Below, one piece after another: positions 4,437 through 44,500 of a DNA stretch of 48,449 nucleotides. The DNA lies in assembly GCA_001768615.1 (NCBI GenBank), contig MELE01000041.1:43108-91556 (forward strand), in the 5' to 3' direction. The stretch's first letter is position 1; each line of letters opens with the position of its first letter. A program made the position numbers and the translations under genes. This stretch comes from Acidobacteria bacterium RIFCSPLOWO2_12_FULL_67_14b (GTDB lineage: Bacteria > Acidobacteriota > Vicinamibacteria > Vicinamibacterales > UBA2999). A model generated the notes under the pieces. The model made no database searches. It was given only the letters and a program-made list of their open reading frames with translations, and was not told the DNA's origin.

Positions 4437-5326
4437 CTGAGTGTGGCCTCGGCCCGCGCATCATTCCATACCAACGTGACTTTCGTTCCACTATCGGCGA
4501 AGTCCCGATGCACGTAACCAAGGCCGACGATCGCGCTTTGCGCCGGAGAGACCACGGCGCTCGTGACCCGGCCGATGTCGCGATCGCCTGAGAGGATTCG
4601 GGCGTCGCGCGGGATGGACAAACCTGAAGGTTTGTCCCCACCAGCAGCGGCCTTCCAGCGCACCAGTTTCCTGGCGACGCGGCCGCCGCCACGGTGCGTC
4701 ACCCGGACGATCACTTCCTGCCCGACGTAGCAGCCCTTCGTGAACGAGATGGCGCGGTCTTCGATGCCGGCTTCGAGGGGAATAGTCTCTTCGTTCATGT
4801 CGACGAGGAACTTCGGCACGCCGTCTTCGACGCGGACGACCTCGTAGGTGTCGAGATCGACTTCGGGCGGCATCGGAGACAACGGGCTCTCCCCCCGCAC
4901 AGCGAACACCGTGAGAGCGGAGCCCGGAGCCCGGCCTGCCCTGAGCGTCGTCGAAGGGAGCCCGGAGCCCGGTCCGACGACCGTCCACACCGACAGGCGC
5001 GCGCTCTCGTCGCTGACCTGGACATCCTCCGTGAAGATCAAACCGTCCAGCCGATCGCGCAACGACGCGGCCAGGGGCGCGGGGACGTCCAGCAGCAGGC
5101 GCGCGCCGCGGGCCAGGACGTTCATGTCGGTGATCATGCGGCCCTGGGGCGTCAGGTACGCGGCATAGCAGCCCTGCCCGTCGGCCAGGGCCGCCACGTC
5201 GTTGGTCACGAGGCCCTGCAGCCACGCCGCGCGATCGCGGCCCGCGACAGCCAGGACCCCGCGATCCACCCGCCTCACTGCGCCGCCCGTTGTCCGGAGA
5301 GCCCGGTAGCCGTCGAGGGAAAACAT
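4433..5326 (-). CDS. ygfZ: YgfZ/GcvT-like folate-binding Fe-S cluster repair protein
   Basis: Signature KGCYVGQE and WLQGLVTND, YLTPQGR. Carries two repeat-derived inserts. Confidence 0.85.
   Translation of the reverse strand: MFSLDGYRALRTTGGAVRRVDRGVLAVAGRDRAAWLQGLVTNDVAALADGQGCYAAYLTPQGRMITDMNVLARGARLLLDVPAPLAASLRDRLDGLIFTEDVQVSDESARLSVWTVVGPGSGLPSTTLRAGRAPGSALTVFAVRGESPLSPMPPEVDLDTYEVVRVEDGVPKFLVDMNEETIPLEAGIEDRAISFTKGCYVGQEVIVRVTHRGGGRVARKLVRWKAAAGGDKPSGLSIPRDARILSGDRDIGRVTSAVVSPAQSAIVGLGYVHRDFADSGTKVTLVWNDARAEATLR
4616..4641 (-). repeat. GTGG-footed palindrome GTGGGGACAAACCTTCAGGTTTGTCC inside ygfZ
   Basis: 10-bp perfect stem; same element at 8418, 25580 and 42202. Confidence 0.85.
4918..4972 (+). 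repeat. CCTGCCCTGAGCnnnGTCGAAGGG element (4935-4958) embedded in a GGAGCCC heptamer array inside ygfZ
   Basis: Same element at 19242 and 31231; a GGAGCCC array also occurs at 13699. Confidence 0.75.
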
Positions 5327-5341
5327 GTTCTAAGCTGAGTC

Positions 5342-7692: not shown

Positions 7693-10368
7693 TCATCTTC
7701 CACAGCGCAACCACATCTCGTTGACGCGATCGCGGAGGCGCACCGCGGCGTCGGCGTAGCTTTCATCCTCGCCGAACGCCAGCGGCGCGCCGAACGACAC
7801 CTTGATGCGGTGGCCGCTCCACGGCCACAGGACCTTCCAGTTGAACGCGCGGTTGCGCGGCCAGACTTCGTACACGCCCTTGAGCGACACCGGCACGATC
7901 GGCACGCCCATGTGTCGCGCCAGGATCGGCGAGCCCTTCTTGAACTTCTTCACCGTGCCGTCGATCGAACGCTCCCCTTCCGGAAAGAGGATCAGGACCC
8001 GGCCGTGCTTCAACCCGAAACCCCCGGCCTTCATCGCGGGCACCAGGTTCGAGTCGGCATCAACGGGCACGCAGTTGACCGTTCGCGCGACCCACTTCGT
8101 GAACGGCGTCTCGAAGTACTCGACCGCGCCGACGAAGAACATGTTGCGGAACGCGCGGTACGGCAGGACACCGCACACGAAGATCGGATCGAGATAGCTC
8201 TGGTGGTTGGGGCTGATGATGTACGGGCCGTCCCTCGGCAACGATTCGAGTCCGGAGACGTCGACGCGGCCGAGCAGCAGGCGCACCACTCGCGAGGCGA
8301 CAAACAGGATCGGCGCCGCCACGGGCTTGCGTTCGAGCAGACCGCCCAGGATCGGATCGGTGGCCGGCGGCAGGTCCTTCAGGATTGAAGCCCACGACTC
8401 GTCGGTCGTGGAAGCAGGTGGGGACAAACCTTCAGGTTGGTCCGCGCCCGGCCGCACTGCGTCGACGAGGTGGCGGACCGTGAACACCTCCGCCGCAGCG
8501 GCCCTCGACACCTGCACCAGGAAACGCTGCTCGAGCTCGGTGAGCAGCTCCACGCGCTCCATCGAATCGAGTCCGAGGTCGAGCTCGAGGTTGGCCTCCG
8601 GCCGCACGCGCGCGCCGGGGCGCACGCGGCCCTCGATCACCCGGGCCGCCGCCGCGGCATGCGCATCCTCGAGCCACGCCTGATCGGCTTCGGGCATCGG
8701 CGCGGTGGCCTCCTGCGCCGCCGATCGATGCCGCTCGCGAACCAGGCGCTCCACCTCGTGCCGCTTCACCTTCCCCGTGGTCGTTCTCGGCAGCGGATCG
8801 AACCAGATGTCGTAGCTGAGCACGCGCTTGTGCGACGGCAGGCCGACGGCCCGGCCCTCGAGCTCGAACCGCAGGATGTCGCCGGTGTTCACGATCTGTT
8901 TCTCGCGCATGAGATCCATGTTCGGGACCACCACCGCGTGCAGCCGCTCGGTCGTCGGGTGGCCGGGGCTGGCCAGCCCCATCACGCACAGCTCCTTGAC
9001 GAACGCCGACTGGCGGTAGTGCGCTTCGACCTCCTCGGGATAGATGTTCTTGCCCGACGCGAGCACGATCATTTCCTTCTTGCGGCCGGTAATGGTGATC
9101 CGCCCGCCGTCGTCCATCCGCCCGAGGTCTCCGGTGAGGAACCAACCGTCGCTCATCACCGCCGCCGTGGCGTCTGGGCGCTTGTAGTAGCCCGGCGTCA
9201 CGATGGCGCCACGAATCGCGATCTCGCCGTCGACGTCTTCGCTCTCGGCGGCGCGAATCTGGATCTGCACGCCTGGCAACGCCCGCCCCACCGTGTCGAT
9301 GTGCGCCTCGTTTGGCGTGTTCATGGTGGCGGCGCCGCTCGTTTCGGTGAGGCCGTACGCCTGCACGATGGTGAAGCCCAGGGAATACAGGTCGCGGCCG
9401 ATGGCGGGGTCGAACTTCGAGCCGCCCGTCACGAAGAGGCGCATGTGGCGCCCCAGCAGGGTGTGGACCCGGGCAAACGCCAGCCGACCGATGTTGACGC
9501 CGACGCGGCGCAGCCGGAAATTGACGGCCATCAGGACGGCGAACACGAGCCGCGTGACCAGCGCCGACTTGCCGACCTGCTCCATCACACGTTGGTGGAT
9601 CAGGTAGAAGAACTGCGGCACGCAGCAGAAGATCGTGATCCGCCGCTCGCTGAGCGCGCGCATGAGCTCGGTCGAATTCACCGACTCGAGGAAGACGACG
9701 CGGGCGCCGACCGCGAAGGGCAGCAGCAGGTTGGCGAGCTGCGCCAGCGCATGAAACAGCGGCAGCACGCCCAGAATGCCGTCGCGGTCGGTCACATCCA
9801 CCACCGCGAAGGCAGCGTCGCGCTCGGCGAGCAGGTTGGCGTGGGTCAGGACGACGCCCTTGGGATCGGACGTCGTCCCGGACGTGTAGAGGATTACCGC
9901 CACCGAAGCCGGTGCCACAGGTGCGTACGGTGCCTGGGGTGCCAAGGGGGTTGGTGCCAGGGGTGCCGAGTGCAGATCCTGGATCTGAATCGGGAGGTCG
10001 GCCACGGCCTCGCGCGCCACCGCGGCGAGCCGCGCGTTCACGAACAGGATCTTCGCGCCCGAATCACCAACGATCGTCGCCACCTGTCTGGCCGAGTAGT
10101 TGGTGTCGAGCGGCACGGCGACGGCGCCGAGGCTGAGGATGCCGAGGTAGGCCGCGCACCAGTGCGCGTCGTTGTCGGCGAGGATCGCGCAGCGGTCGCC
10201 GACGGCCACGCCCTGGGTCGCGAGCCAGGCCGCCCGCGCCCGCGCCATCGACCGCAGGTCCGCGTAAGTGAAGCGATCGATCGCATCCCGCCTCTGGATC
10301 TCGACGGCGGGGCGATCCGCGAAGCGGGTGGCGGAGGCTTCGAAGACCTCCCAGAAATTGGCAGCCAA
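7693..10368 (-). CDS. Long-chain acyl-CoA/ACP synthetase fused to an acyl carrier domain and a PlsC-type acyltransferase
   Basis: YTSGTTSDPKG, YGLTET, TGDLG, GRKKE (AMP-binding); LGLDSMERVEL (phosphopantetheine Ser); NHQSYLD and FPEGERS (acyltransferase). Confidence 0.92.
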   Translation of the reverse strand: MAANFWEVFEASATRFADRPAVEIQRRDAIDRFTYADLRSMARARAAWLATQGVAVGDRCAILADNDAHWCAAYLGILSLGAVAVPLDTNYSARQVATIVGDSGAKILFVNARLAAVAREAVADLPIQIQDLHSAPLAPTPLAPQAPYAPVAPASVAVILYTSGTTSDPKGVVLTHANLLAERDAAFAVVDVTDRDGILGVLPLFHALAQLANLLLPFAVGARVVFLESVNSTELMRALSERRITIFCCVPQFFYLIHQRVMEQVGKSALVTRLVFAVLMAVNFRLRRVGVNIGRLAFARVHTLLGRHMRLFVTGGSKFDPAIGRDLYSLGFTIVQAYGLTETSGAATMNTPNEAHIDTVGRALPGVQIQIRAAESEDVDGEIAIRGAIVTPGYYKRPDATAAVMSDGWFLTGDLGRMDDGGRITITGRKKEMIVLASGKNIYPEEVEAHYRQSAFVKELCVMGLASPGHPTTERLHAVVVPNMDLMREKQIVNTGDILRFELEGRAVGLPSHKRVLSYDIWFDPLPRTTTGKVKRHEVERLVRERHRSAAQEATAPMPEADQAWLEDAHAAAAARVIEGRVRPGARVRPEANLELDLGLDSMERVELLTELEQRFLVQVSRAAAAEVFTVRHLVDAVRPGADQPEGLSPPASTTDESWASILKDLPPATDPILGGLLERKPVAAPILFVASRVVRLLLGRVDVSGLESLPRDGPYIISPNHQSYLDPIFVCGVLPYRAFRNMFFVGAVEYFETPFTKWVARTVNCVPVDADSNLVPAMKAGGFGLKHGRVLILFPEGERSIDGTVKKFKKGSPILARHMGVPIVPVSLKGVYEVWPRNRAFNWKVLWPWSGHRIKVSFGAPLAFGEDESYADAAVRLRDRVNEMWLRCGR
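8418..8443 (+). repeat. GTGGGGACAAACC-family palindrome in the ACP-acyltransferase linker
   Basis: GTGGGGACAAACCTTCAGGTTGGTCC (one mismatch), read on the opposite strand as DQPEGLSP. Confidence 0.82.
9911..9967 (+). repeat. GGTGCnnnn nonamer array in coding sequence (APLAPTPLAPQAPYAPVAP)
   Basis: Six GGTGC units with mostly 9-nt spacing. Confidence 0.65.
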
Positions 10369-25026: not shown

Positions 25027-25377
25027 ATGGTGATTGTGGCGGTCGACGACCTGATGTTCTCGTCGCGGATCTCGAGCGCGGCGAAGGCGCTGGGCGTGGA
25101 GATCGCGTTTGCCCGATCGCCCGAGGCCGTGGTGGCCGCCGTCCGGGAGCGATCGCCGCGCCTGGTGATCCTCGACCTGAACAGCCAGCGCGTGCGGCCG
25201 CTCGAAGCCGTGGCCGCGCTCAAGGCGGATGCCGCGCTGGCGTCGGTGCCGACCGTGGGGTTCGTCTCGCACGTGCAGGCGGACCTGATCGCGCAGGCGC
25301 GGGCGGCCGGCATCGATCAGGTGCTGGCGCGATCGGCATTCGTGCAGCAGCTGTCCGAGTTGCTGCAGGAGGCATGA
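25027..25377 (+). CDS. Atypical single-domain receiver (CheY-like) protein
   Basis: VAVDD, PRLVILDL, AR.AG.D; the conserved Lys appears replaced (VLARS). Confidence 0.7.
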   Translation: MVIVAVDDLMFSSRISSAAKALGVEIAFARSPEAVVAAVRERSPRLVILDLNSQRVRPLEAVAALKADAALASVPTVGFVSHVQADLIAQARAAGIDQVLARSAFVQQLSELLQEA

Positions 25378-26408
25378 TGCTGCCCACCGCCCTCGACGTC
25401 TACGACGCGCGGCGACGGCTGGCGCCGCACCTGCGGCCCACGCCGATGCTGCCGTCCTCCTGGTTGTCGTCGATCGCCGATGGCAGCGTTTTCCTCAAGC
25501 TCGAGTCGCTCAACCTGACGCACTCGTTCAAGATCCGGGGGGCGCTCAACGCGGCGTTGAAGCTGGTCGAGAATCACGACGACAAACCTTCCGCCTTCGC
25601 GCCTAGCGCTTCGGCGGACAAGGCAGGTTTGTCGCCACAAGCCCAGGGGTCGCCACAAGCCCAGACGCTGGTAACCGCATCGGCCGGCAACCACGGGCGG
25701 GCGCTCGCACTGGCGGCCGAGAAGCTCGGGCTCGCGTGTGTGGTCTTCACGCCCGAGAAGGCGCCCGAAGCGAAGAAGAACGCGATCCGCCGGCACGGAG
25801 CCGTCCTGCATGAGTGCGACGACTACGACGCGGCGGAAAAGCAGGCGCGCGAGTTCGCAGCGGCGGAGGGCGCGGTCTACATTTCGCCCTACAACCACCC
25901 GGACGTGATCGCCGGCGCGGGCACGGTCGGCCTCGACATCCTCGAGGCGATGCCGTCCTTCGAGGTCGTGGTCATCCCGCTGGGCGGCGGCGGGCTGTCG
26001 AGCGGCATGGGGCTGGTGATCAAGGCCGCCGCGCCGCAGGCCACCATCGTCGGCGTCGAGGTCGAAGCGTCCTCGCCGTTTACGCTCAGCCTCGAGGCCG
26101 GACGCATCACCGGGATCACGCCGAGACCATCGCTCGCGGATGGCCTGGTCGGCAACCTGGAGCCCGGATCGATCACGTTCCCGCTGGTGAAGCAGGTGGT
26201 CGACTACGTCGTCACGGTGAGCGAGGACGACCTGACGCGGGCCATGCGCGGGCTGGCCGCCGAGGAACACCTGATCGTCGAGGGCGCCGGCGCGGCGGCC
26301 ACGGCGGCGATCATGTCCGGCAAGGCGTCGGCGCCCGGCCAGCGGGTGATCGCGCTCGTCACCGGCGGCAACGTCGACTTGCCGAAGTGGCTGTTTGCCG
26401 TCAGTTGA
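25374..26408 (+). CDS. PLP-dependent threonine/serine dehydratase
   Basis: FLKLESL..THSFKIRGA, SAGNHG, PLGGGGL, EGAGA, TGGN; has a repeat-derived insert. Confidence 0.9.
   Translation: MMLPTALDVYDARRRLAPHLRPTPMLPSSWLSSIADGSVFLKLESLNLTHSFKIRGALNAALKLVENHDDKPSAFAPSASADKAGLSPQAQGSPQAQTLVTASAGNHGRALALAAEKLGLACVVFTPEKAPEAKKNAIRRHGAVLHECDDYDAAEKQAREFAAAEGAVYISPYNHPDVIAGAGTVGLDILEAMPSFEVVVIPLGGGGLSSGMGLVIKAAAPQATIVGVEVEASSPFTLSLEAGRITGITPRPSLADGLVGNLEPGSITFPLVKQVVDYVVTVSEDDLTRAMRGLAAEEHLIVEGAGAAATAAIMSGKASAPGQRVIALVTGGNVDLPKWLFAVS
25580..25664 (-). repeat. Nested palindromes (GACAAACC family with a CCGCCTTCGC element in its loop) plus a 16-bp direct duplication, in frame in the dehydratase
   Basis: CGACAAACCT [TCCGCCTTCGCGCCTAGCGCTTCGGCGGACAAGG] CAGGTTTGTCGCCAC; GTCGCCACAAGCCCAG occurs at 25631 and 25649. 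Confidence 0.8.
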
Positions 26409-34949: not shown

Positions 34950-35770
34950 CCGACCGCTGGACGCACGCCCGAGAGACGGTGCCGCTTCTCGGGCTCAGGC
35001 GGGTCGTCCTCCGAACGCTCGGACCCATCGTCGGGCGTGCCGCGCCGGAAGGCGGGTCCGGCGATCGTTCGGGCGATGGCGTCGAGCTGGCCATGCAGTT
35101 CGGAAGTCCGCAGCGCCGACACCGGCACGCCAGAGTTCACCGCCGACGCCACCGTGCGGTAGTCGCTGCCGAGGGTGTAGTCGATGGTCAGCCCGAGCAC
35201 CCGTTCGATCTGCGCGGTGGACATCACGCCGAACTCCGACGCGCGGTTCAACACGATCTTCAGCCGCTCGCCGACCACCCCCGCCAGCTTCACCGCGTCG
35301 ATCAGCCGCTGGAGGTTTCGCAGGCACGGGACGTCGGGGTTCGCCACGAGCATCACCATGTCCGACGACTGCAGCGCGATGGCGGTGCACGCCGCAATCG
35401 TGCTCCCGGCGTCGATGATCACGAACTCGTAGAGCGCGTTGAGGCACTTGAGCATCTGCTCGATGCCCTCGACGTCCCGCGGCGCGGGACGGCCGTACTC
35501 GTCGCCCGCGGCCATCACGTGCAGGCCACAGTCGTGCTCGGTGACGTATTTCGAGACGGCCCCTGGATCCATCCACGACAGTTGATCGATAACGTGAAGC
35601 ACCGTGTGCCGGGGCCGCAGTCCCAGGAACAGGGCGACGTCGCCGGGGCCGGTCTTCAGGTCGATGACGATGGTGGGGCGGCGGGTGATGCGGCGGAGAT
35701 CCGCCGCCCCGTTGACCGCGAGTGTGGTGGTGCCGGTGCCGCCCTTGGTGCCGAGAAAACTCACGATCAT
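34946..35770 (-). CDS. CpaE/MinD-like ATPase (no receiver domain)
   Basis: Deviant Walker A GTKGGTGTTTLAVN, IDL, GDVALFLGL, FVIIDAG, IVLNR; start at ATG 35770. Confidence 0.8.
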   Translation of the reverse strand: MIVSFLGTKGGTGTTTLAVNGAADLRRITRRPTIVIDLKTGPGDVALFLGLRPRHTVLHVIDQLSWMDPGAVSKYVTEHDCGLHVMAAGDEYGRPAPRDVEGIEQMLKCLNALYEFVIIDAGSTIAACTAIALQSSDMVMLVANPDVPCLRNLQRLIDAVKLAGVVGERLKIVLNRASEFGVMSTAQIERVLGLTIDYTLGSDYRTVASAVNSGVPVSALRTSELHGQLDAIARTIAGPAFRRGTPDDGSERSEDDPPEPEKRHRLSGVRPAVG

Positions 35771-35784
35771 GGAGCGATGCAGAC

Positions 35785-35799
35785 GCAACCCGTGTGCCA
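35785..35799 (-). promoter_or_regulatory. Sigma-54 -24/-12 promoter for the CpaE-like gene
   Basis: TGGCAC-ACGGG-TTGC, exact consensus spacing. Confidence 0.7.
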
Positions 35800-36002
35800 G
35801 AGGGGAAAAGCCGTGCACACACGAATGGGGCGGGCCGAACGGGGCCCGCCCCAGGGGTTCCGATCGTTGCACATCTGTAAGCGCGTCCACGCGATTGGTG
35901 GGTGGGAGGCGCCTCGCCGGAGGGCGCGGCCGAGCTGGCCCGCCGCCGCTAAGTCGATGCAGATGGGCGGGTTCCGGCGGCGCCGAGGCCCTCGGGCGGC
36001 CG

Positions 36003-36018
36003 CGGCACGTCACTTGCT
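36003..36018 (+). promoter_or_regulatory. Sigma-54 -24/-12 promoter for the small protein gene
   Basis: CGGCAC-GTCAC-TTGCT. Confidence 0.7.
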
Positions 36019-36054
36019 CTGTGGCTGGTACTCCCTGGAGCGTCACCAATAACC

Positions 36055-36252
36055 ATGGCCACTACACCTCAATCGTTCGTTCGTCCCGCGAAAGATGAGT
36101 GGGGTGTCTACGACCCCCAGCAAGCCGGCCTGGCGGCGCTCTTCGCGAGGCTCGACTCGAAAGACGCCTCCGCGAAACTGCAGGCCAAACCCGACGACGC
36201 CGTCGTGGCGCCGCCGGCGCTGCCGCGGCCGACCCTTCGCGACGCAAAGTAA
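36055..36252 (+). CDS. Small hypothetical protein (65 aa)
   Basis: Has its own promoter and terminator; protein-like core DEWGVYDPQQAGLAALFARLD. Confidence 0.65.
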   Translation: MATTPQSFVRPAKDEWGVYDPQQAGLAALFARLDSKDASAKLQAKPDDAVVAPPALPRPTLRDAK

Positions 36253-36273
36253 CCCTTCCTCAACGTCCCTCTG

Positions 36274-36307
36274 GGAGGCGCTCCATGACGGCGCCTCCTT
36301 TTTTTTT
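36274..36307 (+). terminator. Rho-independent terminator
   Basis: GGAGGCGC stem, 9-nt loop, GCGCCTCC, then T9. Confidence 0.85.
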
Positions 36308-36382
36308 GTACGGCCGGCGGCACCCCTGGTCGTCCGCCAGCGCCACGCGCGTCGATCCGGTGACGGCGCTGCGGCTCGAGTA

Positions 36383-36407
36383 GTAGCGGCGGGTCTATAG
36401 ACCCGCC
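36383..36407 (+). repeat. GTAG REP copy (GTAGCGGCGGGTCTATAGACCCGCC)
   Basis: Same stem as the copies at 2293, 3000 and 32049. Confidence 0.78.
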
Positions 36408-36427
36408 TGCGGATATGATCGCGTGTC

Positions 36428-39058
36428 ATGTGCGCGCGGCTCATCGCTCTCGTGCTTGCGGTGCTCGTCTCGGGGTCGCTTGGCGCCCAGACGCCAACGG
36501 CCCCGGCCGCGATTCAATCCCCCGAGGCGTTCTTCGGGTTCCGGATGGGCGCGGATCGCGAGCTCGCCGACTGGCCCTCCCTGCAGCGCTACGTCGAGAC
36601 CGTCGCCGCCGCCTCGGATCGTGTAGACCTCGTCGATGCCGGCCCGTCTACTGAGGGACGCCGGCTGATCGCGGCCATCGTGACCGCGCCCGACAACCTC
36701 GCGCGCCTGGAAGAGATCCGGGCCAACAACATGCGGCTCGCCGATCCCCGCACGCTCGACGAGGCGGCCGCGATGGCCATGGCGGAGCGGCAACCGGCCA
36801 TCATCGCCATCGGCATGAGCATCCACGCGACGGAGATCGGCGCGACGCAGGCGGGGCCCGAGCTGCTCCACACGCTGGCCACCTCCCAGGATCCAGAGGT
36901 GCTCCGCACTCTCCGCGACATCGTCCTGATCCTCCTCCCGTCGCTCAACCCCGACGGCCACGTGATCACCGTCGATTGGTACCGGAAATGGAAGGGCACG
37001 GAATTCGAAGGCACCGGCATGCCGTGGCTGTACCACCGCTACGTCGGCCACGACATCAACCGCGATGCGTTCATGATGAACATGGCGGAGAACCGCACGC
37101 TGTCGGACTTCTTCTACCGCCGCTGGCATCCGCAGGTGTTTCTCACGATGCACCAGATGGGACCACGTGGCCCGCGGTTCTTCGTGCCGCCCAACATCGA
37201 TCCGATCGACCGCAACTACGACCCGCTGATCTGGCGGACCGCCGGCCTGCTCGGGCATGCGATGGCGCTGTCGCTCGAAGAGGATGGCCGCTCCGGCGTG
37301 CTCCAGAACGCGCTCTACGATTACTACTGGCCCGGCTACGAAGATTCAGCGCCGCTGGGCCATAACACCGTCAGCCTCCTCACCGAAGCGGCGGGGGTGC
37401 GCGTGGCGTCGCCGATCAACGTCGCCGCCGATCAGCTCGTCGGCGGCCGCGGCTTTCCCGATCACCGGCCGTCGACGACGTTTCCCCATCCGTGGCCCGG
37501 CGGCGACTGGCGCCTGCGCGACATCGTCGACTACGACCTGTCGGCCGCGCGCGGCCTGCTCGTTGCGGTCGCGCGCTACCGCGTGGAGCTGGTGCGCAAC
37601 TTCTATCGCATGGGCCAACGGCAAGTCGCGCTCGGGCTCAAGGGCGGGCCGTTCGCGTACATCATTCCGCCCGATCAGTTCGACGGGCACGCGGCGCGCA
37701 AGCTGATCCAGCTGTTGATCGAAGGCGCCGTGGACGTGCAGCGGACCCTCGAACCGTTCCGCGTCGCCGAAACCGTCTACCCGCAAGGCACCGACATCAT
37801 CCTGATGGCGCAGCCCTATCGCGCCTACGCCAAGACGCTGCTCGAAGTGCAGGAGTACCCCGTTCGCCGCCCCGCTCCGGGCGCCCCCGCCGATCGGCCG
37901 TACGACGTGGCGGGATGGACCCTGCCGCTGCAGATGAACGTCAGGGTCGATCGCATCGATCAGTATTTCGAGCCGCCGCCGACGACGCGGCTCGACCGGG
38001 CGCCCGTGGCCACCGCCCAGGTCTGGGGCGACACGAAGAAGGCCGGCTACTACGTGATCGACGGAAGGGGCAACGCGCCGAGCATCGCGATCAACCGGCT
38101 GCTCAACACCGGCGCCCGCGTGGCGTGGAGCACGGCGCCGATCGATCTGCAGGGATTCCACTACCAAGTGGGCGCCCTCGTCGTGGCCGACGCCAAGGGC
38201 GTGCGTGAAGCCGTTGCCGGGATTGCGCGCGACCTCGGCCTGCGCGCCACGGCCGCCGCCGGCCGCCCGCCGCAGGGGACGCGCGCCCTGTCGCGGGTGC
38301 GCGTCGGGCTGTACAAGCCCTGGGTCGAGAACATCGACGAAGGGTGGACGCGCTGGCTCCTCGAACAGTACGAGTTCCCCTTCGAGACGATCGCCGACGC
38401 GGACATCAAGCGCGGCGGCCTGCGCGACCGCCTCGACGCGATCGTGATTCCCGACCAGAGCGCCGAGCGGCTGATCAACGGGCACCCGGCCGGAACCATG
38501 CCTCCCGACTACGTGGGCGGCCTGGGCATGGAGGGCGCCGACATGCTGCGGCGGTTCGTCGACGCCGGCGGCACGCTGGTGGCCCTGGATTCGGCGAGCG
38601 AGTTTGCGGTGAACCTGCTCGGCGCGGCCGTGAAAGACACCACGCGCGGCCTGCCGCCCAACGAATTCTTCTGCCCGGGATCGGTCGTGCGGCTCGAGCT
38701 CGAGGCGGATCCATTGACCATGGGCGTGCCGGCGGAGACGGCAGGCTTCTTCAGCTTCGGCGGCGCCTTCGAGCTGGCGCCCGCGGCGTCAACCTCGCCC
38801 GAATCCTCGCCCTCGGCCACCGCTCGCATCGTCGGACGCTATTCGAAGAAGGACGTGCTCCTGAGCGGCTGGCTCGAGGGTGAACGGGTGATCGCCGGCA
38901 AGGGCGCGATGGTGGAGGTGACGTCGGGCCAGGGCCGGGCCGTGCTCTTTGCCTTCCGGCCGCAGCACCGCGGCCAGTCTCACGCGACGTTCCGCTTGTT
39001 CTTCAACGCCCTGCACACGGCCCAGAGCGCAGTTCCTGCGACATCTCGCAGCCGTTAG
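36428..39058 (+). CDS. Secreted M14-family zinc carboxypeptidase with a C-terminal GATase-like domain
   Basis: Signal peptide, SIHATE (HxxE), SLNPDG, GHDINRD, HQMG, YDVAGWTLP. Confidence 0.88.
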   Translation: MCARLIALVLAVLVSGSLGAQTPTAPAAIQSPEAFFGFRMGADRELADWPSLQRYVETVAAASDRVDLVDAGPSTEGRRLIAAIVTAPDNLARLEEIRANNMRLADPRTLDEAAAMAMAERQPAIIAIGMSIHATEIGATQAGPELLHTLATSQDPEVLRTLRDIVLILLPSLNPDGHVITVDWYRKWKGTEFEGTGMPWLYHRYVGHDINRDAFMMNMAENRTLSDFFYRRWHPQVFLTMHQMGPRGPRFFVPPNIDPIDRNYDPLIWRTAGLLGHAMALSLEEDGRSGVLQNALYDYYWPGYEDSAPLGHNTVSLLTEAAGVRVASPINVAADQLVGGRGFPDHRPSTTFPHPWPGGDWRLRDIVDYDLSAARGLLVAVARYRVELVRNFYRMGQRQVALGLKGGPFAYIIPPDQFDGHAARKLIQLLIEGAVDVQRTLEPFRVAETVYPQGTDIILMAQPYRAYAKTLLEVQEYPVRRPAPGAPADRPYDVAGWTLPLQMNVRVDRIDQYFEPPPTTRLDRAPVATAQVWGDTKKAGYYVIDGRGNAPSIAINRLLNTGARVAWSTAPIDLQGFHYQVGALVVADAKGVREAVAGIARDLGLRATAAAGRPPQGTRALSRVRVGLYKPWVENIDEGWTRWLLEQYEFPFETIADADIKRGGLRDRLDAIVIPDQSAERLINGHPAGTMPPDYVGGLGMEGADMLRRFVDAGGTLVALDSASEFAVNLLGAAVKDTTRGLPPNEFFCPGSVVRLELEADPLTMGVPAETAGFFSFGGAFELAPAASTSPESSPSATARIVGRYSKKDVLLSGWLEGERVIAGKGAMVEVTSGQGRAVLFAFRPQHRGQSHATFRLFFNALHTAQSAVPATSRSR

Positions 39059-39118
39059 CGTTGCAGTTTCTACGACGCGTTTCCGGCGCCAGGCCGGGAC
39101 TGTCAGCAAAACGGGCGG

Positions 39119-41536
39119 TTGCCACGCGGCGGCCCGTTTGCAGGACCCCGGCGCGTGGAATCCCCCACAGGCCCGTTCGCACCCGGAGACACCGTCACCG
39201 CCCGCGGCGAGCAGTGGAAGGTCAGCAGCGCCGATCGATTTGCCGGCTGCGCCGTGATCACGCTTGATGGCACAGGCGCGTCGAACGCCGGCGTGCGATC
39301 CACGCTGATCGCGCCGTTCGACACGATCGCCAAGGTCGTCTCCGGGAAGCCGCTCAGGCGGAGCCGCAGCTCGACGCTGCGCATCGCCCGCGCCGCGATC
39401 GCATCCGCGCGCCCCGCATGCGGCATCTGGACCGCGGCGGCGGCGAAGGTCGACCTGCTCGCGTATCAACTCGAGCCCGCGTTGGCGGTGCTCGCCGGCG
39501 CCACGCGCGTGCTCCTGGCGGATGCCGTTGGCCTGGGCAAGACCATCCAGGCGGGGCTGATCCTCACGGAACTGCTGGCGCGGGGCCTGGTGGATCGCGC
39601 GCTCATCCTCACGCCGGCTGGATTACGGGACACCTGGGCGGCCGAGCTGCGCAATCGGTTCGACCTTCGCCCGATCGTGTTCGACCAGGCGTCGGTGGCG
39701 ACCGCGCTCCATGGCCTGCCCGCCGGCGTCAACCCCTGGGCGTCGCACGCCATCGTGATTGCGTCGATCGACCTGGTGAAGCGGCCGGAGGTGCTCGCCA
39801 CCGTGGAAGGGGCGCCGTTCGACCTGGTGATCGCGGACGAGGCCCACCACCTGACGCCGGGAAGCGACCGCGGCGCGGCGGTGGAGCGCCTGGCCTCGCG
39901 CGCGCCTTGGGTGGTGCTGGCGTCGGCGACGCCGCACTCCGGAGACGATGCGGCATTCAACTACCTGACCCGGATCGGCGGCTCCGGCGATCGCATCACC
40001 GTGTTCCGCCGGACCCGTCACGAAGTGGGTGCGGGCATGGGCCGTCGCGTGCACCTGCTCGCCGTCACGCCATCAGGGGCGGAATCGCGCATGTTGCGCG
40101 CGGCGGAAGCCTACGCCCGCGCGATTTGGAACGGTGTGGGACAACGCGATCGCGGGGCGCGGCTGCTGGCCATCCTGCTGGCGCGGCGCGCCGCGTCGAG
40201 CGCCACCGCGCTCGAGCGCACGCTGACGCGCCGGCTCCACCTGCTGTCGGGCCGGGACGATCCGGCGGCGGAGCAGGCGTCGCTGCCCTGGGAAGACGCC
40301 GAGGAGGGCGACGGCGATGTGCCGGCTGAACTGCTGGGCGCGGCCGGCTTCGACGATCGGGCCTCCGAACAGTGCGTCCTCGAAGAGCTCGTCGCGGCGG
40401 CGACGGCGGCGCGCCACCACGCGTCGAAGATTCGGCTGATTGCGCGCCTGATTCGGCGCGTGCGTGAGCCTGCCGTGATCTTCACGGAGTACCGCGACAC
40501 GCTCGATGCGCTGGTGGAGGCGCTCGGCGGCGGCCACCGGATCCGGACGCTGCACGGCGGGCTGTCTGCCGGCCTTCGCCACCTGGCCCTCTCGGCGTTC
40601 ACCCACGGCGACGCCGACCTTCTGATCGCCACCGACACGGCGGGTGAGGGGCTCAACCTGCATCATCGCTGCCGGCTTGTGATCGATGTCGAGCTGCCGT
40701 GGAATCCGCGGCGGCTCGAACAGCGCGTGGGCCGCGTCGATCGCCTTGGCCAGACGCGGCGCGTCCACGCGATCCGGCTGCTCCACCGCGGGACCGTGGA
40801 AGAGACGGTGCTCGCGCGCCTGGAACGGCGGCGCATTCGCGCGGCCGCGGCGTTGGACGGCGAGCCCGACGCGTGGTTCGGCGAAGAGGATGTCGCGGCG
40901 GCGGCGTTAGGAGCGGCCGGGTGGCCGTCGCGCGCGCCGGCGCGGCTGGCATCCGCGGTGGTCGTGGCGGCGGCCGCCGAGGTCGAACGCGTTGCCCGCC
41001 AGCGTGCCGGCGGCAGCATGCGCGCAGCGCGTCGCGCGGTGTTGAGCCTTCCACGGCATCCCGCGAGGGCCGCGGCCCGCATGCTGCTCCTCTACCACTT
41101 GCGATCGGTGGGGCCGCTCGGACGAACGGCGGACGAATCGTTGCGCGCGCTGCTCGTCGAGCTGAGCCACAGGCCAACGACCCGTCGTGACTGGCAGGCG
41201 CGCATCGCCGATCTCGACCGCGATCCCCGGGTTCGGGCCGTGCTCGCGCACGAAGGCCTGAGGCACGCGGCGGAGATCGACTCGCAGCTCGCAGCGTTGC
41301 GCGAAGCCGTCCGGCAACGGGTGCAGGTGATCCGGGATCGCCTCCATCGCACGCTGCCGCGCGAGCTTCAGCCATCCATGTTCGATCGCCGCGTCGAGCG
41401 CGGCGCGATCCTCCATCAGCAGGCGATCGCCCGCCTGGACGCCGCGCTACGCCGCCGCATCGACGCCGTGACGCCTGCGGCGCCGCCGACGGTTCCGCGT
41501 CCGGTGTTGACGGCCGCCTGGCCCCTCGAGGTCTAG
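39119..41536 (+). CDS. SNF2-family helicase/ATPase (DrmD-like)
   Basis: YQLEP, LLADAVGLGKT, DEAHH, SATPH, IFTEY, GEGLNL, WNP..LEQRVGRVDR.GQ; start may be GTG 39155. Confidence 0.88.
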   Translation: MPRGGPFAGPRRVESPTGPFAPGDTVTARGEQWKVSSADRFAGCAVITLDGTGASNAGVRSTLIAPFDTIAKVVSGKPLRRSRSSTLRIARAAIASARPACGIWTAAAAKVDLLAYQLEPALAVLAGATRVLLADAVGLGKTIQAGLILTELLARGLVDRALILTPAGLRDTWAAELRNRFDLRPIVFDQASVATALHGLPAGVNPWASHAIVIASIDLVKRPEVLATVEGAPFDLVIADEAHHLTPGSDRGAAVERLASRAPWVVLASATPHSGDDAAFNYLTRIGGSGDRITVFRRTRHEVGAGMGRRVHLLAVTPSGAESRMLRAAEAYARAIWNGVGQRDRGARLLAILLARRAASSATALERTLTRRLHLLSGRDDPAAEQASLPWEDAEEGDGDVPAELLGAAGFDDRASEQCVLEELVAAATAARHHASKIRLIARLIRRVREPAVIFTEYRDTLDALVEALGGGHRIRTLHGGLSAGLRHLALSAFTHGDADLLIATDTAGEGLNLHHRCRLVIDVELPWNPRRLEQRVGRVDRLGQTRRVHAIRLLHRGTVEETVLARLERRRIRAAAALDGEPDAWFGEEDVAAAALGAAGWPSRAPARLASAVVVAAAAEVERVARQRAGGSMRAARRAVLSLPRHPARAAARMLLLYHLRSVGPLGRTADESLRALLVELSHRPTTRRDWQARIADLDRDPRVRAVLAHEGLRHAAEIDSQLAALREAVRQRVQVIRDRLHRTLPRELQPSMFDRRVERGAILHQQAIARLDAALRRRIDAVTPAAPPTVPRPVLTAAWPLEV

Positions 41537-41543
41537 CTCGCGC

Positions 41544-44500
41544 GTGGTGCCCGGGCTCCGCGGTCGGCTCGTCTCTCACGCCTACGTCGAGCAGCAGCTC
41601 CTGCCCGCGCTCGCGCGATCCGGACCCGACGCCGTCCACACCGCCGCTGCCCGCCGGCTCGGGCAGTGGTGGCGGCGGGTGAACCGTGCGCTCGGGCCGG
41701 CTTCCAGCGCCCGTGCCATCCTCGATGTGGCCGTCGCCCCGATGCTGGCGATCCTGGGCTACGGAACGCCGGCCCTCTCGTCACACGAGTGGGGCCTCGA
41801 CGGATCGATCGGTCCATCCGGCACGGCCCTCGTCGTGCTGCCCTGGTCCAGGTCGCCGGATTCGGCCTGGACCAGCGTGCTGCGGGCGGGCCTCGCCTCG
41901 AGCGCCCGCTGGGCGCTCGTCACCAACGGCCACACGCTCCGCATTGTCGACCTCTCGCGCGCGTGGACGCGTCACTCAGTGGAATTTCACCTCGGCGCGG
42001 CGCTCAGCGACGAGAAGGGCGTGGCGGCGTTGCTGGAACTCGCGAGCGCGCCGGCCGTCACCGGCGAAGCGGCCGTGGGCCGCAGCCTGGCCGCCGTGAT
42101 TGCGGAGTCGGATCGCTTCTCCGCGCGCGTCTGCCAGTCCCTCGGCAACGGCGTGCTGGCGGCCCTTCCGCAGCTGACGCAGGCGCTCAGCGCTCGTCCT
42201 CGTGGGGACAAACCTTCAGGTTTGTCCGGACCAGGCGAGAGCCCCTTCGACCAGGCGCTCACGGTGATCTACCGCGTGCTGTTTCTCCTGTTCGCCGAGG
42301 CGCGCGGGCTCGTGCCGATCTGGAACGACGTGTATCGCGAGGCGTACACGATCGACGCGCTCTGCCGGCGCGTGATCGAGCGGCCGGGCGCGCCCGGCCT
42401 GTGGGCCTCTCTTCAGGCGATTTCCCGGATGGCGCATTCGGGTTGCCGCGCCGGCGATCTCGACGTGACGGCGTTCAACGGCCGCCTGTTCTCGCCGTCG
42501 CAGACGCCGCTCGCCGACCGGCACCTGGTGCCCGACTCGGTGGCGCAAGCAGTGGTGCTGGCGCTGGCGACCATCGAGTCGCCCACCGGCCGCCATCGCA
42601 TCGCCTACCACGACCTCGGTGTCGAGCAGCTCGGCTCGGTGTACGAGCGCGTGCTCGAGCACGAGCCTGCGCGCCCGCCTTCGCCAGGGGCTCCGGCGAG
42701 GCAGGCGGGGCGGACGATCGTCCTGACGAAGACGTCCACCGAGCGCAAGTCCACGGGCAGCTTCTACACGCCTCGCGCGCTCACCGAGTTTCTCGTCCGG
42801 CGCACGCTCCATCCGCTCGTCGACGGCCGGACGGCCGACGAGATCCTCTCGCTGCGCGTCGTCGATCCGGCGATGGGCAGCGGCGCATTCCTCGTGGCCG
42901 CGTGCCTGTACCTCGCCGATCAGTGCGAGCACGCGTCGGTCCGGGACGGCGACTGGCACGCCGGCGAGGTGACGATGGCCGATCGCATCGGCCTTCGACG
43001 GGCGGTCGCGGAGCGATGCCTCTACGGCGTCGACGTGAATCCCACGGCGGTGCAGCTGGCGCGGCTCTCGCTGTGGCTCACCACCCTGGCCTCCGATCGC
43101 CCGTTGACGTTTCTCGATCACCACCTCGCCGTCGGCGACAGCCTGATTGGCGCCCGACTGCCCGATCTCGCCGGCCCGCCGCGCGCCACGCCCTCGCGAT
43201 CCAGGCGTGCCGTGCCGCAGCTCCCGTTGTTCGAGGACGATGTGGCACACATCGCGCGTGAGCGCGTGCTGCCCGAGCGCATCCGGCTTGCGCTCCAACC
43301 GTCCGACACGCTGGATGCGGTGCGGGCAAAGGAGCGGACGCTGGCGGCGCTCACCGGACCGGATGGCCCGTTCGCGAAATGGTCCGCGGCCGCCGACGCG
43401 TGGTGCGCGGCCTCGTTGTGGCCGGGATCGCCGCCCTCGCGCGCGCTGGTGGCCGAAGGCCTGGCCGGCGCGCTGGGCGCCGCGACCACCCTGCCGCGCG
43501 CGCAGATCGAGCACTGGCTGGCCGAGGCCCGCTCGATTGCGCGCAGGCACGCCGTGTTCCATTGGGAGCTGTCGTTTCCGGAAGTGTTCTTCGACGCGGC
43601 GGGACGGCCGCGCCCCGACGGCGGGTTCGACGCGGTGATGGGCAACCCGCCGTGGGACATGCTGCGCGCCGACACTGGATCGGCCGGCGACCGCCGGTCG
43701 GACCGCGATCGCACCGCGTCGTTGCTCCGCTTCTTCCGATCGTCGGGCACGTACGGCTGCCAGGGCAGCGGCCATCCCAACCGGTATCAGCTGTTTCTCG
43801 AGCGGGCGTGGCAGCTCGCCCGGCCGGAAGGGCGATGGGGAATGATCCTGCCGTCGGGGATTGCGACCGATCACGGCAGCGCCCTCCTGCGCCGGCGGCT
43901 GTTCGAGCGGCACACCGTGGATACGTGGCTGGGCTTCGACAACCGCCAGGCGATTTTCCCGATCCACCGGAGCGTCCGCTTCGTGGTGATGGCCGGCACC
44001 AATGGCGGTTCGACCGAACGGCTCGACATGCGTTGCGGCCTGCAGCACGCCGGCGTGCTCGAACGGCTGCCGAGCTCGCCGAACGACGGCGGCGCGCCGC
44101 GACCGATCTGCGTAACCCGTTCCCGGCTCGAGGCCTGGGACCCGGATCACCTGACCGTGCCCGAGATCACCTGCCAGGAGGCGCTTGGCATCCTCACCCA
44201 TGCCGCGGAGGTCGCACCTCGGCTCTCGTCGGCCGAGGGGTGGGGCGCGCGATTCGGGCGCGAGCTGAATGCGACCGACGACCGGCCACATTTCGTCGCG
44301 CGCCCGCACCCCTCGGCCCTGCCGATCGTCGAGGGCAAGCATTTGCGGCCGTTCCGGGTGGGGATCGACGAGACCACCGCCGCCATTCCGCGCGCGATCG
44401 CCGAACGGCTGATCGACTCTCGAACCAGCTTCGATCGCGTGCGGCTGGCATACCGGGACGTGGCCAGCGCGACCAACGCCGTCACGCTGATCGCCGCGCT

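What the first reader, a model, noticed from the sequence alone, without database searches (positions are those of the whole stretch)
4616..42227. A 26-bp palindrome family found only inside protein-coding genes, always in frame
Seen: GTGGGGACAAACCTTCAGGTTTGTCC occurs four times in unrelated genes and never intergenically in this window. The sites are ygfZ (4616-4641, GDKPSGLS), the acyl-ligase/ACP/acyltransferase linker (8418-8443, read on the other strand as DQPEGLSP), the threonine dehydratase (25580-25638) and the DNA methyltransferase (42202-42227, GDKPSGLS). Every ORF stays open. Known: REPs have a GTAG/GTGG foot plus a hairpin, are spread by RAYT HUH transposases and are normally extragenic; Rickettsia palindromic elements are the classic in-frame exception. 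Inference: this is a mobile micro-element that writes peptide inserts into protein loops. No RAYT gene is in the window.
Basis: partly seen in the sequence, partly recalled or inferred. Interest (0 to 1): 0.78.

Follow-up and report, generated by a model that had tools for sequence, protein, structure and literature searches.

The report
REP hairpins translated inside genes
A small mobile DNA hairpin of the well-known REP type is scattered through this soil acidobacterium, mostly between genes, but about a third of its copies sit inside working genes and are read as a short loop peptide; this has been described before in other bacteria.

Summary
The four sites are real and all lie in frame in genuine genes: two exact 26-mers, one copy with one mismatch, and one 59-nt composite copy. 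The title claim fails at genome scale. The 5.3-Mb genome (a Vicinamibacterales MAG) holds 131 short copies. Of these, 84 have no coding frame through them and 39 lie deep inside ORFs, against 2541 of 4000 random windows.

The unit is sharply bounded: GTGG-S-GACAAACCT-TY-AGGTTTGTC-S, with a covarying closing pair. This is a REP. In three congeners (G044, G050 and the unpublished G047) a 166-170-aa RAYT gene is bracketed by inverted copies. I found no such RAYT in this genome or in its two closest relatives.

Intragenic copies are read almost only in one frame: 37 of 39 here and 27 of 27 in other MAGs, giving GGDKP(S/L)GLS or DKP(E/K)GLSP. Orthologue alignments show lineage-specific loop or linker inserts, with one linker invaded repeatedly.

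Intragenic GTAG/GTGG REPs were described by Di Nocera et al. 2013, and this scan has met them on other genomes. Verdict: a new member of a known kind.

Three points stay open:
- how a 26-nt unit stays in frame
- why orthologous copies stay intact
- where the RAYT is

The parts
4616..4641 (-). Short REP copy, exact consensus (G..C closing pair, TC loop). Read forward in frame as GGDKPSGLS in the YgfZ/GcvT-like gene.
   Evidence: The insert is shared with G002 (as the long form), G005 and G004, and is absent in the other 26 of 30 aligned orthologues.
4433..5326 (-). Host gene 1: a YgfZ/aminomethyltransferase-fold protein. The insert lies between GCV_T and GCV_T_C.
   Evidence: Pfam. PDB relatives.
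8418..8443 (+). Short REP copy with one mismatch in the right arm. The gene on the - strand reads it in reverse as ADQPEGLSP.
   Evidence: It lies in the linker between PP-binding and Acyltransferase. The same linker carries copies in at least six other congeners, with differing subtype or number.
7693..10368 (-). Host gene 2: a fusion of AMP-binding, PP-binding and acyltransferase domains.
   Evidence: Pfam.
25580..25638 (-). Composite long copy of 59 nt: foot GTGGC, arms 25581-25589 and 25625-25633, and a 35-nt loop holding an inner hairpin module (about 25590-25619). The gene on the + strand reads it as DKPSAFAPSASADKAGLSP.
   Evidence: DNA fold -21.8 kcal/mol, z -4.55. Shared with G002 and G005, degenerate in G045, absent in the rest of the 30 aligned orthologues.
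25374..26408 (+). Host gene 3: a PLP-dependent threonine dehydratase or serine racemase-like enzyme. The insert replaces 3 residues of the solved TdcB structure and is predicted to be disordered.
   Evidence: Pfam. PDB 2gn0 alignment: query 57-85 is unaligned. AlphaFold2: pLDDT below 50 at residues 70-94, between helix 52-68 and strand 98-102.
25631..25666 (+). An 18-nt tandem duplication (GTCGCCACAAGCCCAGGG twice, the second copy imperfect) that includes the foot of the long copy. It encodes SPQAQG-SPQAQ.
   Evidence: Read directly. Absent from the G002 and G005 orthologues.
42202..42227 (+). Short REP copy, exact consensus. Read forward as RGDKPSGLS in the N-terminal region of the methyltransferase.
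   Evidence: The site is empty in G002 and filled by the other subtype (C..G, TT loop) in G005. Contigs of runs X1, X3 and X5 bridge it with the copy present.
41544..44933 (+). Host gene 4: an Eco57I/N6_Mtase-type DNA methyltransferase of 1129 aa.
   Evidence: Pfam. A match was found in 31 of 36 congeners.

Best explanation
This is a family of repetitive extragenic palindromes (REPs). The unit is a 26-nt single-strand hairpin: foot GTGG, one covarying closing pair, a 9-bp stem GACAAACCT/AGGTTTGTC and a TT or TC loop.

Shown here: the family is dispersed in about 130 copies in this genome and in up to about 130 copies in congeners. In three congeners it brackets a RAYT (HUH-Y1 tyrosine transposase) gene in inverted orientation. 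About 30% of copies lie in frame in real genes, in loops or linkers, and are absent from most orthologues.

Inferred from what is known of RAYT/TnpA-REP and IS200/IS605 enzymes: a RAYT copies the hairpin as single-stranded DNA. Copies land anywhere. Those that break genes are purged. Those that keep the frame and encode the hydrophilic, turn-forming peptide G-D-K-P-x-G-L-S survive as neutral passengers on protein surfaces. The other frames give stops, or TNLxVC, or WGQTFRFV.

The 59-nt 'long form' is the same hairpin with a second, independent hairpin module nested in its loop. In-frame arrays of 18-nt half-units probably grow by slippage between the two GGT triplets that lie 18 nt apart.
For: Anatomy:
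- 131 loci at up to 3 mismatches, 79 of them exact.
- The boundaries are sharp at 26 nt. The closing pair is C..G in 60 and G..C in 59 of 125 copies. The foot is GTGG in 118 and GTAG in 7 of 125.
- The hairpin is predicted for all four window copies.
- There is no target-site duplication: flank repeats of 2 nt in 4 of 131 copies, against 9 of 131 in a shifted control.

RAYT link:
- G044 locus L286 (108.4 bits on NF047646, cut-off 80), G050 L287 (101.6 bits) and unpublished G047 L290 (103 bits) each carry a 166-170-aa ORF.
- GTGG-hairpin copies lie about 50 nt upstream, and hairpin-CCAC copies start 3 nt after the stop.

Distribution:
- 27 of 37 genomes of the genus have the arms, with 0 hits for the reversed control pattern.
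- 0 of 16 genomes from other families of the order have them.
- A scan of public contigs hit Acidobacteriota/Vicinamibacterales MAGs almost exclusively.

Intragenic copies:
- 39 of 131 are deep in ORFs. 31 of 34 host ORFs scanned have Pfam hits, including IleRS, GcvP, PriA, Mfd, UvrD, YidC and LarC.
- Frame: 37 of 39 use the GAC-AAA-CCT frame. Binomial p is 7.5e-16 against 1/3 and 1.4e-9 against 1/2. The same holds for 27 of 27 deep copies among 124 copies in 108 public MAG loci.
- The peptide is not kept on its own. All 198 six-frame DKPxGLS hits have 2 or fewer DNA mismatches to the arms, and no hit of the looser motif has 4 or 5.

Inserts are lineage-specific. The PALP insert maps to a loop predicted to be disordered.

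Precedent: PMC3733652 reports intragenic GTAG REPs, a GTGG foot variant, and hosts such as UvrA/D, helicases, tRNA synthetases and pseudouridine synthases.
Against: - No RAYT flanked by this REP was found in this genome. Its five Y1 genes each carry their own unrelated inverted repeats.
- The best match to the REPtron RAYT is 45% identical in G000, 44% in G005 and 34-35% in G002, G004 and G046, although G000, G002 and G005 hold 116, 129 and 67 copies.
- A 26-nt or 59-nt unit without target duplication cannot by itself keep a reading frame. Net length differences between filled and empty loops are +9 to +39 nt, never a clean +26 or +27.
- The frame bias of 64 of 66 is stronger than I can show peptide tolerance alone to give.
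- Orthologous copies in G000, G002 and G005 keep identical arms while their flanks differ by about 20%. A neutral passenger should not do this.
- No filled/empty polymorphism was seen in contigs of four metagenome runs, so recent movement in this lineage is not shown.
- Intergenic copies show no preference for convergent or downstream gaps: 52 tandem, 16 divergent and 12 convergent, against a background of 1070, 466 and 270.
Confidence: 0.78

Rival explanations
1. The hairpin itself is functional inside genes. It would be a DNA- or RNA-level signal kept by selection at domain boundaries, for example a translational pause made of rare codons plus a stable stem, an RNase or gyrase site, or a binding site for a host protein. 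Intragenic copies would then be maintained rather than merely tolerated.
For: - Orthologous copies in the YgfZ-like and PALP genes keep their arms identical in G000, G002 and G005. In the PALP composite copy the differences fall in the apical loop and bulge, while flanking coding DNA of the syntenic block is 72-84% identical.
- G004 keeps the YgfZ stem through a change on both sides (GACCAACC/GGTTGGTC).
- Variation across copies follows stem pairing (the GACACACC/GGTGTGTC subfamily), not codon degeneracy. Third-codon positions 10, 13, 16 and 19 are 98-100% invariant.
- The copies sit in linkers and loops.
Against: - Only two shared sites were examined.
- Copies were found by similarity to the consensus, so decayed ones are missed by construction.
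- The G045 PALP copy has decayed.
- 10 of 37 congeners have no copy at all and their orthologues work without the insert.
- Gene conversion among about 130 copies, or re-insertion, would give the same pattern.
- At two shared sites the subtype differs between species.
Confidence: 0.12
2. The single reading frame is set by the insertion mechanism rather than by selection. The enzyme would target a short sequence that in coding DNA falls in a fixed codon phase, for example GG of Gly codons on one strand and CC of Pro codons on the other, or it would replace a stretch of equal phase by templated repair.
For: - 64 of 66 deep intragenic copies use one frame, in both orientations.
- In that frame the foot GG occupies codon positions 1-2 (Gly) when read forward, and its complement CC occupies positions 1-2 (Pro) when read in reverse. 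This follows directly from the sequence.
- Filled loops are not a clean +26 nt.
- The same linker or loop is hit again and again, with different subtypes.
Against: - Flanking positions of intergenic copies show only weak base preferences and no target motif.
- GG dinucleotides occur in all codon phases in a 67% G+C genome. This is an inference and was not counted.
- The sister family GTAG-AGGCGGGTCT uses at least two frames: 13, 4 and 1 of 18.
- Repeated hits in one linker are also what selection for tolerant sites predicts.
Confidence: 0.08
3. The repeated feature is a selected peptide motif (G-D-K-P-x-G-L-S), or a DNA-uptake-type signal enriched in genes, rather than a mobile hairpin.
For: The peptide is the same in 64 of 66 intragenic copies. 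Uptake sequences in other bacteria are known to sit in genes with a frame bias; this is recalled and was not checked here.
Against: - 84 of 131 copies are not in any coding frame.
- No copy keeps the peptide with diverged DNA: 0 of 198 strict hits have more than 2 mismatches.
- The unit is a hairpin with a foot and brackets a RAYT gene.
- The copy number of about 130 per 5.3 Mb is far below that of known uptake sequences (recalled).
Confidence: 0.02

Closest known systems
Intragenic GTAG-tagged REPs (Di Nocera, De Gregorio and Rocco 2013, BMC Genomics 14:522, PMC3733652), most numerous in Opitutus terrae
   Same: - Small hairpin with a GTAG/GTGG foot, tens to hundreds of copies, and several families in one genome.
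- Copies lie entirely within ORFs of known proteins and encode 7-9 residues when single or 20-30 when grouped.
- Hosts include UvrA/D-type helicases, tRNA synthetases and pseudouridine synthases.
- The authors argue that the copies sit in flexible linkers or loops.
- Within a family the same peptide recurs (VGPALAAG; VAGVADP...PGSASPA) in supplement 3.

Read: abstract, passages and supplement 3 part 1.
   Different: - Different phylum (Acidobacteriota, Vicinamibacterales) and different sequence.
- I measured the intragenic share (39 of 131) against random positions, and the frame use (64 of 66). I did not find either analysis in the passages I read.
- New here: a composite form with a nested second hairpin, in-frame arrays of 18-nt half-units, and repeated invasion of one linker across species.
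REP/REPIN-RAYT systems (REPtrons; Nunvar 2010, Bertels and Rainey 2011, Ton-Hoang 2012, Messing 2012; these four recalled, not read here)
   Same: - Hairpin plus conserved 5' tetranucleotide.
- A single-copy RAYT gene bracketed by inverted copies, seen in G044, G050 and G047.
- The family is confined to one genus.
- Subfamilies are defined by compensated stem changes.
   Different: - About 110 of 131 copies are singlets rather than inverted doublets; there are 6 inverted and 5 direct neighbour pairs within 150 nt.
- A third of the copies are intragenic.
- The cognate RAYT is not found in the three copy-rich genomes closest to the window.
Rickettsia palindromic elements (RPE; Ogata 2000/2002, Claverie and Ogata 2003; known to me through citations in PMC3733652 and recall)
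   Same: Palindromic repeats inserted in frame in functional genes and translated as surface peptides. They are lineage-specific relative to orthologues.
   Different: - RPE-1 is far longer (recalled as 100-150 bp) than this 26-59-nt element.
- RPEs end in CGTC, not GTAG/GTGG, and have no associated transposase according to PMC3733652.
- They occur in obligate intracellular alphaproteobacteria.
TIR-flanked tyrosine transposases (TIRYTs) of Acidobacteria (PMC3733652)
   Same: Four of the five Y1 genes of this genome are flanked by long inverted repeats of 21-53 nt unrelated to the REP. This matches the Acidobacteria group described in that paper.
   Different: These genes are not linked to the element studied here. 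They are context, not its mobiliser.

Membership tests
REP (GTAG super-family) | Short (20-40 nt) palindrome able to form a stem-loop | tested here: met
   A 26-nt unit with a 9-10-bp stem and a 2-4-nt loop. The composite copy is 59 nt.
REP (GTAG super-family) | Conserved tetranucleotide GTAG (or a close variant) at one end | tested here: met
   GTGG in 118 and GTAG in 7 of 125 copies. The GTGG variant is recorded for O. terrae in PMC3733652.
REP (GTAG super-family) | Many dispersed copies, family-specific stem, compensated stem variants | tested here: met
   131 loci. The closing pair covaries, 119 of 125 being complementary. A GACACACC/GGTGTGTC subfamily exists.
REP (GTAG super-family) | Extragenic location (the classical definition) | tested here: not met
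   39 of 131 copies are deep in ORFs and 84 of 131 lie outside any coding frame. PMC3733652 shows that this feature is not strict for the family.
REPtron (RAYT with its REPs) | A RAYT gene bracketed by inverted copies of the same REP | tested here: met
   Met in congeners G044 (L286), G050 (L287) and unpublished G047 (L290).
REPtron (RAYT with its REPs) | The same arrangement in the genome of the window | tested here: not met
   There are five Y1 genes, none with a copy within 300 nt. The best match to the REPtron RAYT is 45% identical and carries a different REP. The assembly is 92% complete, in 258 contigs with 13,646 N, so absence is not shown.
REPtron (RAYT with its REPs) | RAYT family membership and catalytic motifs | tested here: met
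   NF047646 scores of 101.6-108.4 bits against a cut-off of 80. H-V-H (or H-A-H) and a GYYD tyrosine are visible in the ORFs. That these are the catalytic motifs is recalled.
REPtron (RAYT with its REPs) | The enzyme cuts and joins the hairpin; copies move | not testable with these tools
   Only indirect evidence: the MTase site is filled in G000 and G005 and empty in G002.
Rickettsia palindromic elements | Long palindromic unit (recalled as about 100-150 bp for RPE-1) with a CGTC end | tested here: not met
   The unit is 26 or 59 nt with a GTGG end.
MITE | Terminal inverted repeats of an IS, with a target-site duplication | tested here: not met
   No flank duplication: 0 of 131 copies at k of 3 or more. 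The whole unit is one hairpin.

The most novel reading that the evidence does not exclude
The intragenic hairpins are not passive. In this lineage the REP would have become a maintained 'linker cassette': a nucleic-acid structure kept intact at domain boundaries by selection or by continual conversion. It would persist without its cognate RAYT, be always placed in one codon phase, and accept a second hairpin module in its loop. If so, a selfish REP would have been turned into a reusable building block of protein linkers, possibly with a role in co-translational pausing.
Probability: 0.1. Interest if true: 0.65.

Novelty: new member of a known kind. Interest (0 to 1): 0.36.

Why it matters
This is a clean, quantified example of a REP family that colonises coding DNA in a little-studied soil phylum. 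It comes with a measured coding share, an almost absolute reading-frame bias replicated in independent genomes, and an identified REPtron in congeners.

It gives a tractable case for three open questions about REPs:
- how a unit whose length is not a multiple of three ends up in frame
- whether intragenic hairpins are maintained or merely tolerated
- whether REP populations stay uniform after the RAYT is gone

For annotation, it warns that 9-aa to 29-aa lineage-specific inserts in housekeeping enzymes of these MAGs are repeat-derived.

Tried and rejected
- Population polymorphism. I laid contigs of four metagenome runs (X1, X3, X5, X6) on window 25000-43000. Contigs bridge both copies with the element present and no empty allele is listed. 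Two X6 contigs end at 25604 and 25606, inside the long hairpin. Contigs drop rare variants, so this says nothing about mobility. No RNA holder was listed.\n- Rfam. No family reached its gathering score in the window.\n- Frameshifting insertions. 19 intergenic copies have same-strand coding flanks, with frame offsets of 5, 8 and 6 for 0, 1 and 2. There is no excess of the +2 shift that a 26-nt insertion into an ORF would leave, so I rejected the idea that many 'intergenic' copies are fresh gene disruptions.\n- My first local classifier (150-nt flanks) and a greedy gene caller (81% coding) were too crude. I replaced them with the ORF-based classifier. That classifier still misses the YgfZ and PALP copies of the window, so the intragenic counts are lower bounds.\n- G000 Y1 genes on C47 and C48 have a copy about 700 nt away. 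It lies outside their own inverted repeats, so I rejected them as cognate.\n- Exact insertion length. Filled and empty orthologous loops are too diverged (nearest species 72-84% nucleotide identity) to give a clean boundary.\n- Literature. Searching for Vicinamibacter* together with repetitive and palindrom* found 0 papers. Searches for REP/RAYT with in-frame, intragenic or reading frame gave PMC3733652 as the only paper that, by its listing, treats intragenic REPs directly.\n- The scan's own index holds no look-alike of this sequence.
Full report
**1. Observation**

The 26-mer GTGGGGACAAACCTTCAGGTTTGTCC is present exactly at 4616-4641 (- strand) and 42202-42227 (+). A copy with one mismatch lies at 8418-8443 (+). 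None of 100 shuffles gave a match. The fourth site, 25580-25638, is a 59-nt composite: the same foot and arms enclose a 35-nt loop that is itself a hairpin. The arm GACAAACCT occurs 7 times in the window, all at these four sites, against 0.15 expected.

All four sites lie in ORFs with Pfam domains on both sides or around them:
- a GCV_T/GCV_T_C YgfZ-like protein
- an AMP-binding, PP-binding and acyltransferase fusion
- a PALP enzyme
- an Eco57I/N6_Mtase methyltransferase

The peptides read GGDKPSGLS, ADQPEGLSP (reverse orientation), DDKPSAFAPSASADKAGLSP and RGDKPSGLS.

**2. Genome-wide census**

The window is C41:43108-91556 of a 5.31-Mb assembly with 258 contigs, 67% G+C and 92% completeness. 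The foot-plus-hairpin pattern with up to 3 mismatches gives 131 distinct loci: 79 exact, 32 with one mismatch, 14 with two and 6 with three.

A profile of the 125 copies with 2 or fewer mismatches shows a sharply bounded 26-nt unit:
- The foot is GTGG in 118 copies and GTAG in 7.
- The closing pair is C..G in 60 and G..C in 59.
- The loop is TT in 59 and TC in 54.
- The flanks are nearly unconstrained.

There is no target-site duplication. About 110 copies are singlets; there are 6 inverted and 5 direct neighbour pairs within 150 nt. Sixteen composite copies carry the 35-nt loop.

**3. Coding or not**

No gene caller was on hand, so I trained a codon log-likelihood model on long ORFs. I called a copy 'deep intragenic' when one stop-free frame runs through it with at least 40 codons and a positive coding score on each side.

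| Class | Copies (of 131) |
|---|---|
| Deep intragenic | 39 |
| Near a gene end or weak | 8 |
| No coding frame through the copy | 84 |

The same test on 4000 random 26-nt windows gives 2541 deep intragenic. The odds ratio is 0.24, p = 2e-14. The test misses two of the four window copies, so the counts are lower bounds.

Of the 34 host ORFs outside the window, 31 have Pfam hits at E of 1e-5 or better. They include IleRS, GcvP, PriA, Mfd, UvrD, an AddA-like helicase-nuclease, YidC, LarC, gamma-glutamyltranspeptidase, two aminotransferases and an RluA-type pseudouridine synthase. Many copies lie inside the domain envelopes.

Intergenic copies sit in tight spacers, and the loop TAG sometimes supplies the upstream gene's stop. 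The types of their flanking gene pairs mirror the background. So the family is depleted in genes. It is neither confined to genes nor excluded from them.

**4. One reading frame**

- 37 of the 39 deep copies are read in the frame GAC-AAA-CCT. Twenty-two are forward (GGDKP[S/L]GLS) and 15 reverse (DKP[E/K]GLSP).
- One copy, in an AraC/AlkA_N linker, uses frame B.
- One doubtful ORF without a Pfam hit uses frame C.
- Of the six orientation-frame combinations, four or five are stop-free. The bias is therefore far from chance: p = 1.4e-9 even against one half.
- An independent sample of 108 public MAG loci holding 124 copies gives 27 deep intragenic copies, all in this frame.

The peptide is not conserved on its own. 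All 198 six-frame DKPxGLS hits have 2 or fewer DNA mismatches to the arms, and a looser motif shows no class with 4-5 mismatches.

**5. Inserts relative to orthologues**

- YgfZ-like gene. The copy is present in G000, G005, G004 (degenerate, with a stem change on both sides) and G002. It is absent from the other 26 of 30 aligned orthologues. In G002 it is the composite form, exactly 33 nt longer.
- Acyl-ligase linker. Copies occur in G000, G002, G004, G008, G024 (degenerate), G051 (one and a half copies) and G044, with differing subtype or number. G044 carries an in-frame array of 11 left arms and 4 right arms in 249 nt.
- PALP gene. The composite copy is shared by G000, G002 and G005, differing only in the apical loop and bulge. 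It is decayed in G045 and absent elsewhere.
- Methyltransferase. The site is filled in G000, filled by the other subtype in G005 and empty in G002.

The PALP insert replaces three residues of solved TdcB (2gn0) just after the helix that follows the PLP-lysine motif. AlphaFold2 predicts it as a coil with pLDDT below 50. Rows from unpublished G047 appear in these alignments, but no statement depends on them.

**6. What moves it**

G000 has five Y1_Tnp genes. One, on C178, scores 109 bits on NCBIfam REP_Tyr_transpos, above the cut-off of 80. One on C174 scores 80.2. The other three score below the cut-off. Each is flanked by its own inverted repeats, and none has this REP within 300 nt. This matches the TIR-flanked Y1 transposases that PMC3733652 describes in Acidobacteria.

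Searching ten congeners gave the answer. G044 (L286), G050 (L287) and unpublished G047 (L290) each have a 166-170-aa RAYT scoring 101.6-108.4 bits. GTGG-hairpin copies lie about 50 nt upstream of the start, and hairpin-CCAC copies begin 3 nt after the stop. This is a textbook REPtron. The three proteins are 65-83% identical.

A 49-54% identical RAYT in G018 carries one copy in frame at its own C-terminus and one just after it. It sits inside arrays of a related, shorter hairpin.

No closer relative exists in the assemblies of G000, G002, G005, G004 or G046. The best matches are 45%, 34%, 44%, 35% and 34% identical. This is so even though G002, G000 and G005 hold 129, 116 and 67 copies. Five congeners with no copy still have other RAYT-like genes.

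**7. Related repeats in the same genome**

The inner module of the composite form is GTCCGCCGAAGCGC-nnn-GCGCGAAGGCGGA, two stems separated by a GAA/GAA internal loop. It is a family of its own, with 48 hits at about 46 places. It is often nested in other outer stems. Seventeen copies are deep intragenic, read as SAFAxxASADK or LSAEAxxAKAE.

An unbiased count of perfect hairpins shows sister families with the same T(T/C) loop. The largest is GTAG-AGGCGGGTCT..AGACCCGCCT, with about 100 copies. Eighteen of these are deep intragenic: 13 read GGSxDPP, 4 read EAGLxxR and 1 reads another frame. The genome is thus REP-rich in the way described for Opitutus terrae.

**8. Mechanism**

Shown:
- hairpin anatomy
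- a genus-restricted, copy-number-variable family
- a REPtron in congeners
- lineage-specific, in-frame, loop-located inserts
- a single frame
- no conservation of the peptide alone

Inferred:
- RAYT-mediated copying of single-stranded hairpins
- purging of disruptive copies
- survival of those encoding a hydrophilic Pro-x-Gly turn

The 18-nt half-unit arrays fit slippage between the GGT at positions -1 to 2 and the GGT at positions 17-19 of the unit (read directly).

Not explained:
- how a unit of 26 or 59 nt (both 2 mod 3) stays in frame
- why filled loops are +9 to +39 nt rather than +26 or +27
- why orthologous copies keep perfect arms while flanks diverge by about 20%
- why the subtype differs at two shared sites

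Selection on the hairpin, gene conversion, or re-insertion at the same spot could each account for the last two points.

**9. Comparison with the literature and verdict**

Di Nocera et al. 2013 (PMC3733652) report the following; I read the abstract, passages and supplement 3 part 1:
- REPs entirely within ORFs in several species, most in O. terrae
- a GTGG foot variant
- hosts rich in repair helicases, tRNA synthetases and pseudouridine synthases
- the argument that the copies sit in linkers or loops

Their supplement shows recurring peptides per family. I found no analysis of frame bias or of coding share against chance in the passages I read. Searches for Vicinamibacter* with repeat terms found nothing.

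This scan's earlier notes list similar in-frame REPs in other phyla and other hairpin repeats in this same genome. The finding is therefore a well-supported new member of a known kind. Its title claim ('only inside genes') is wrong, and a few mechanistic loose ends are worth a closer look.

Noticed in passing
window about 32062-32131 (module 32084-32113, +): A copy of the inner hairpin module (TCTCGCCGAAGCGCTTCGCGCGAAGGCGGA) nested in a different outer stem. It lies in the gap between the ORFs ending at 32035 (-) and starting at 32506 (+). The module family has 48 hits in the genome, 17 of them deep intragenic.
   Followed up: partly
G000 genome-wide (for example C3:4743, C14:30916, C47:16513): A sister REP family with a canonical GTAG foot, GTAG-AGGCGGGTCT-TY-AGACCCGCCT. 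It has about 100 copies, 18 of them deep intragenic: 13 read GGSxDPP, 4 read EAGLxxR and 1 reads another frame. Smaller GCGGAACT and GGCGGGAC families share the same loop.
   Followed up: partly
L234:3650-4450 (G000:C178:15149-15949): The only G000 RAYT well above the NCBIfam cut-off (109 bits). It is bracketed by tandem and inverted copies of another hairpin, GCGACGGCTTTAGCCGTCGC, which shares the CTTTAG loop of the element studied.
   Followed up: partly
L001-L004 (G000 C47, C189, C48, C174): Four further Y1-transposase genes, each flanked by its own inverted repeats of 21-53 nt. The C48 protein has a C-terminal helix-turn-helix-like tail. They resemble the TIR-flanked tyrosine transposases reported for Acidobacteria.
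   Followed up: partly
L061 (G044:C13, acyl-ligase linker): A 249-nt in-frame stretch holding 11 left arms and 4 right arms of the element, mostly as 18-nt units GTGGCGACAAACCTNNAS. It is translated as repeated GGDKPx / RGDKPL.
   Followed up: partly
L237:1150-2134 (G018:C489): A RAYT gene whose C-terminal tail contains one copy of the element in frame (IDKPKGLSPQ...), with a second copy just after the stop. Both flanks carry arrays of a shorter related hairpin, CGGACCTTTAGGTCCG, with a 24-nt period. The contig ends in the array.
   Followed up: partly
window 39155-44933: A gene for an SNF2/ResIII-type helicase (39155-41536) lies directly upstream of the Eco57I-type methyltransferase. The methyltransferase has a match in 31 of 36 congeners, in the syntenic block in G002. 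It therefore looks like a conserved chromosomal gene rather than a mobile defence island. I did not check the helicase pairing in congeners.
   Followed up: no
window 25604-25606: Two contigs of run X6 end inside the long hairpin, whereas contigs of X1, X3 and X5 run through it. The hairpin may break short-read assemblies.
   Followed up: no
window 45289-48372 (-): A 1027-aa open frame on the - strand has no Pfam hit and overlaps real + strand genes (Amidohydro_3 at 46168-47910). It is a shadow ORF typical of high-G+C DNA, not a gene.
   Followed up: partly
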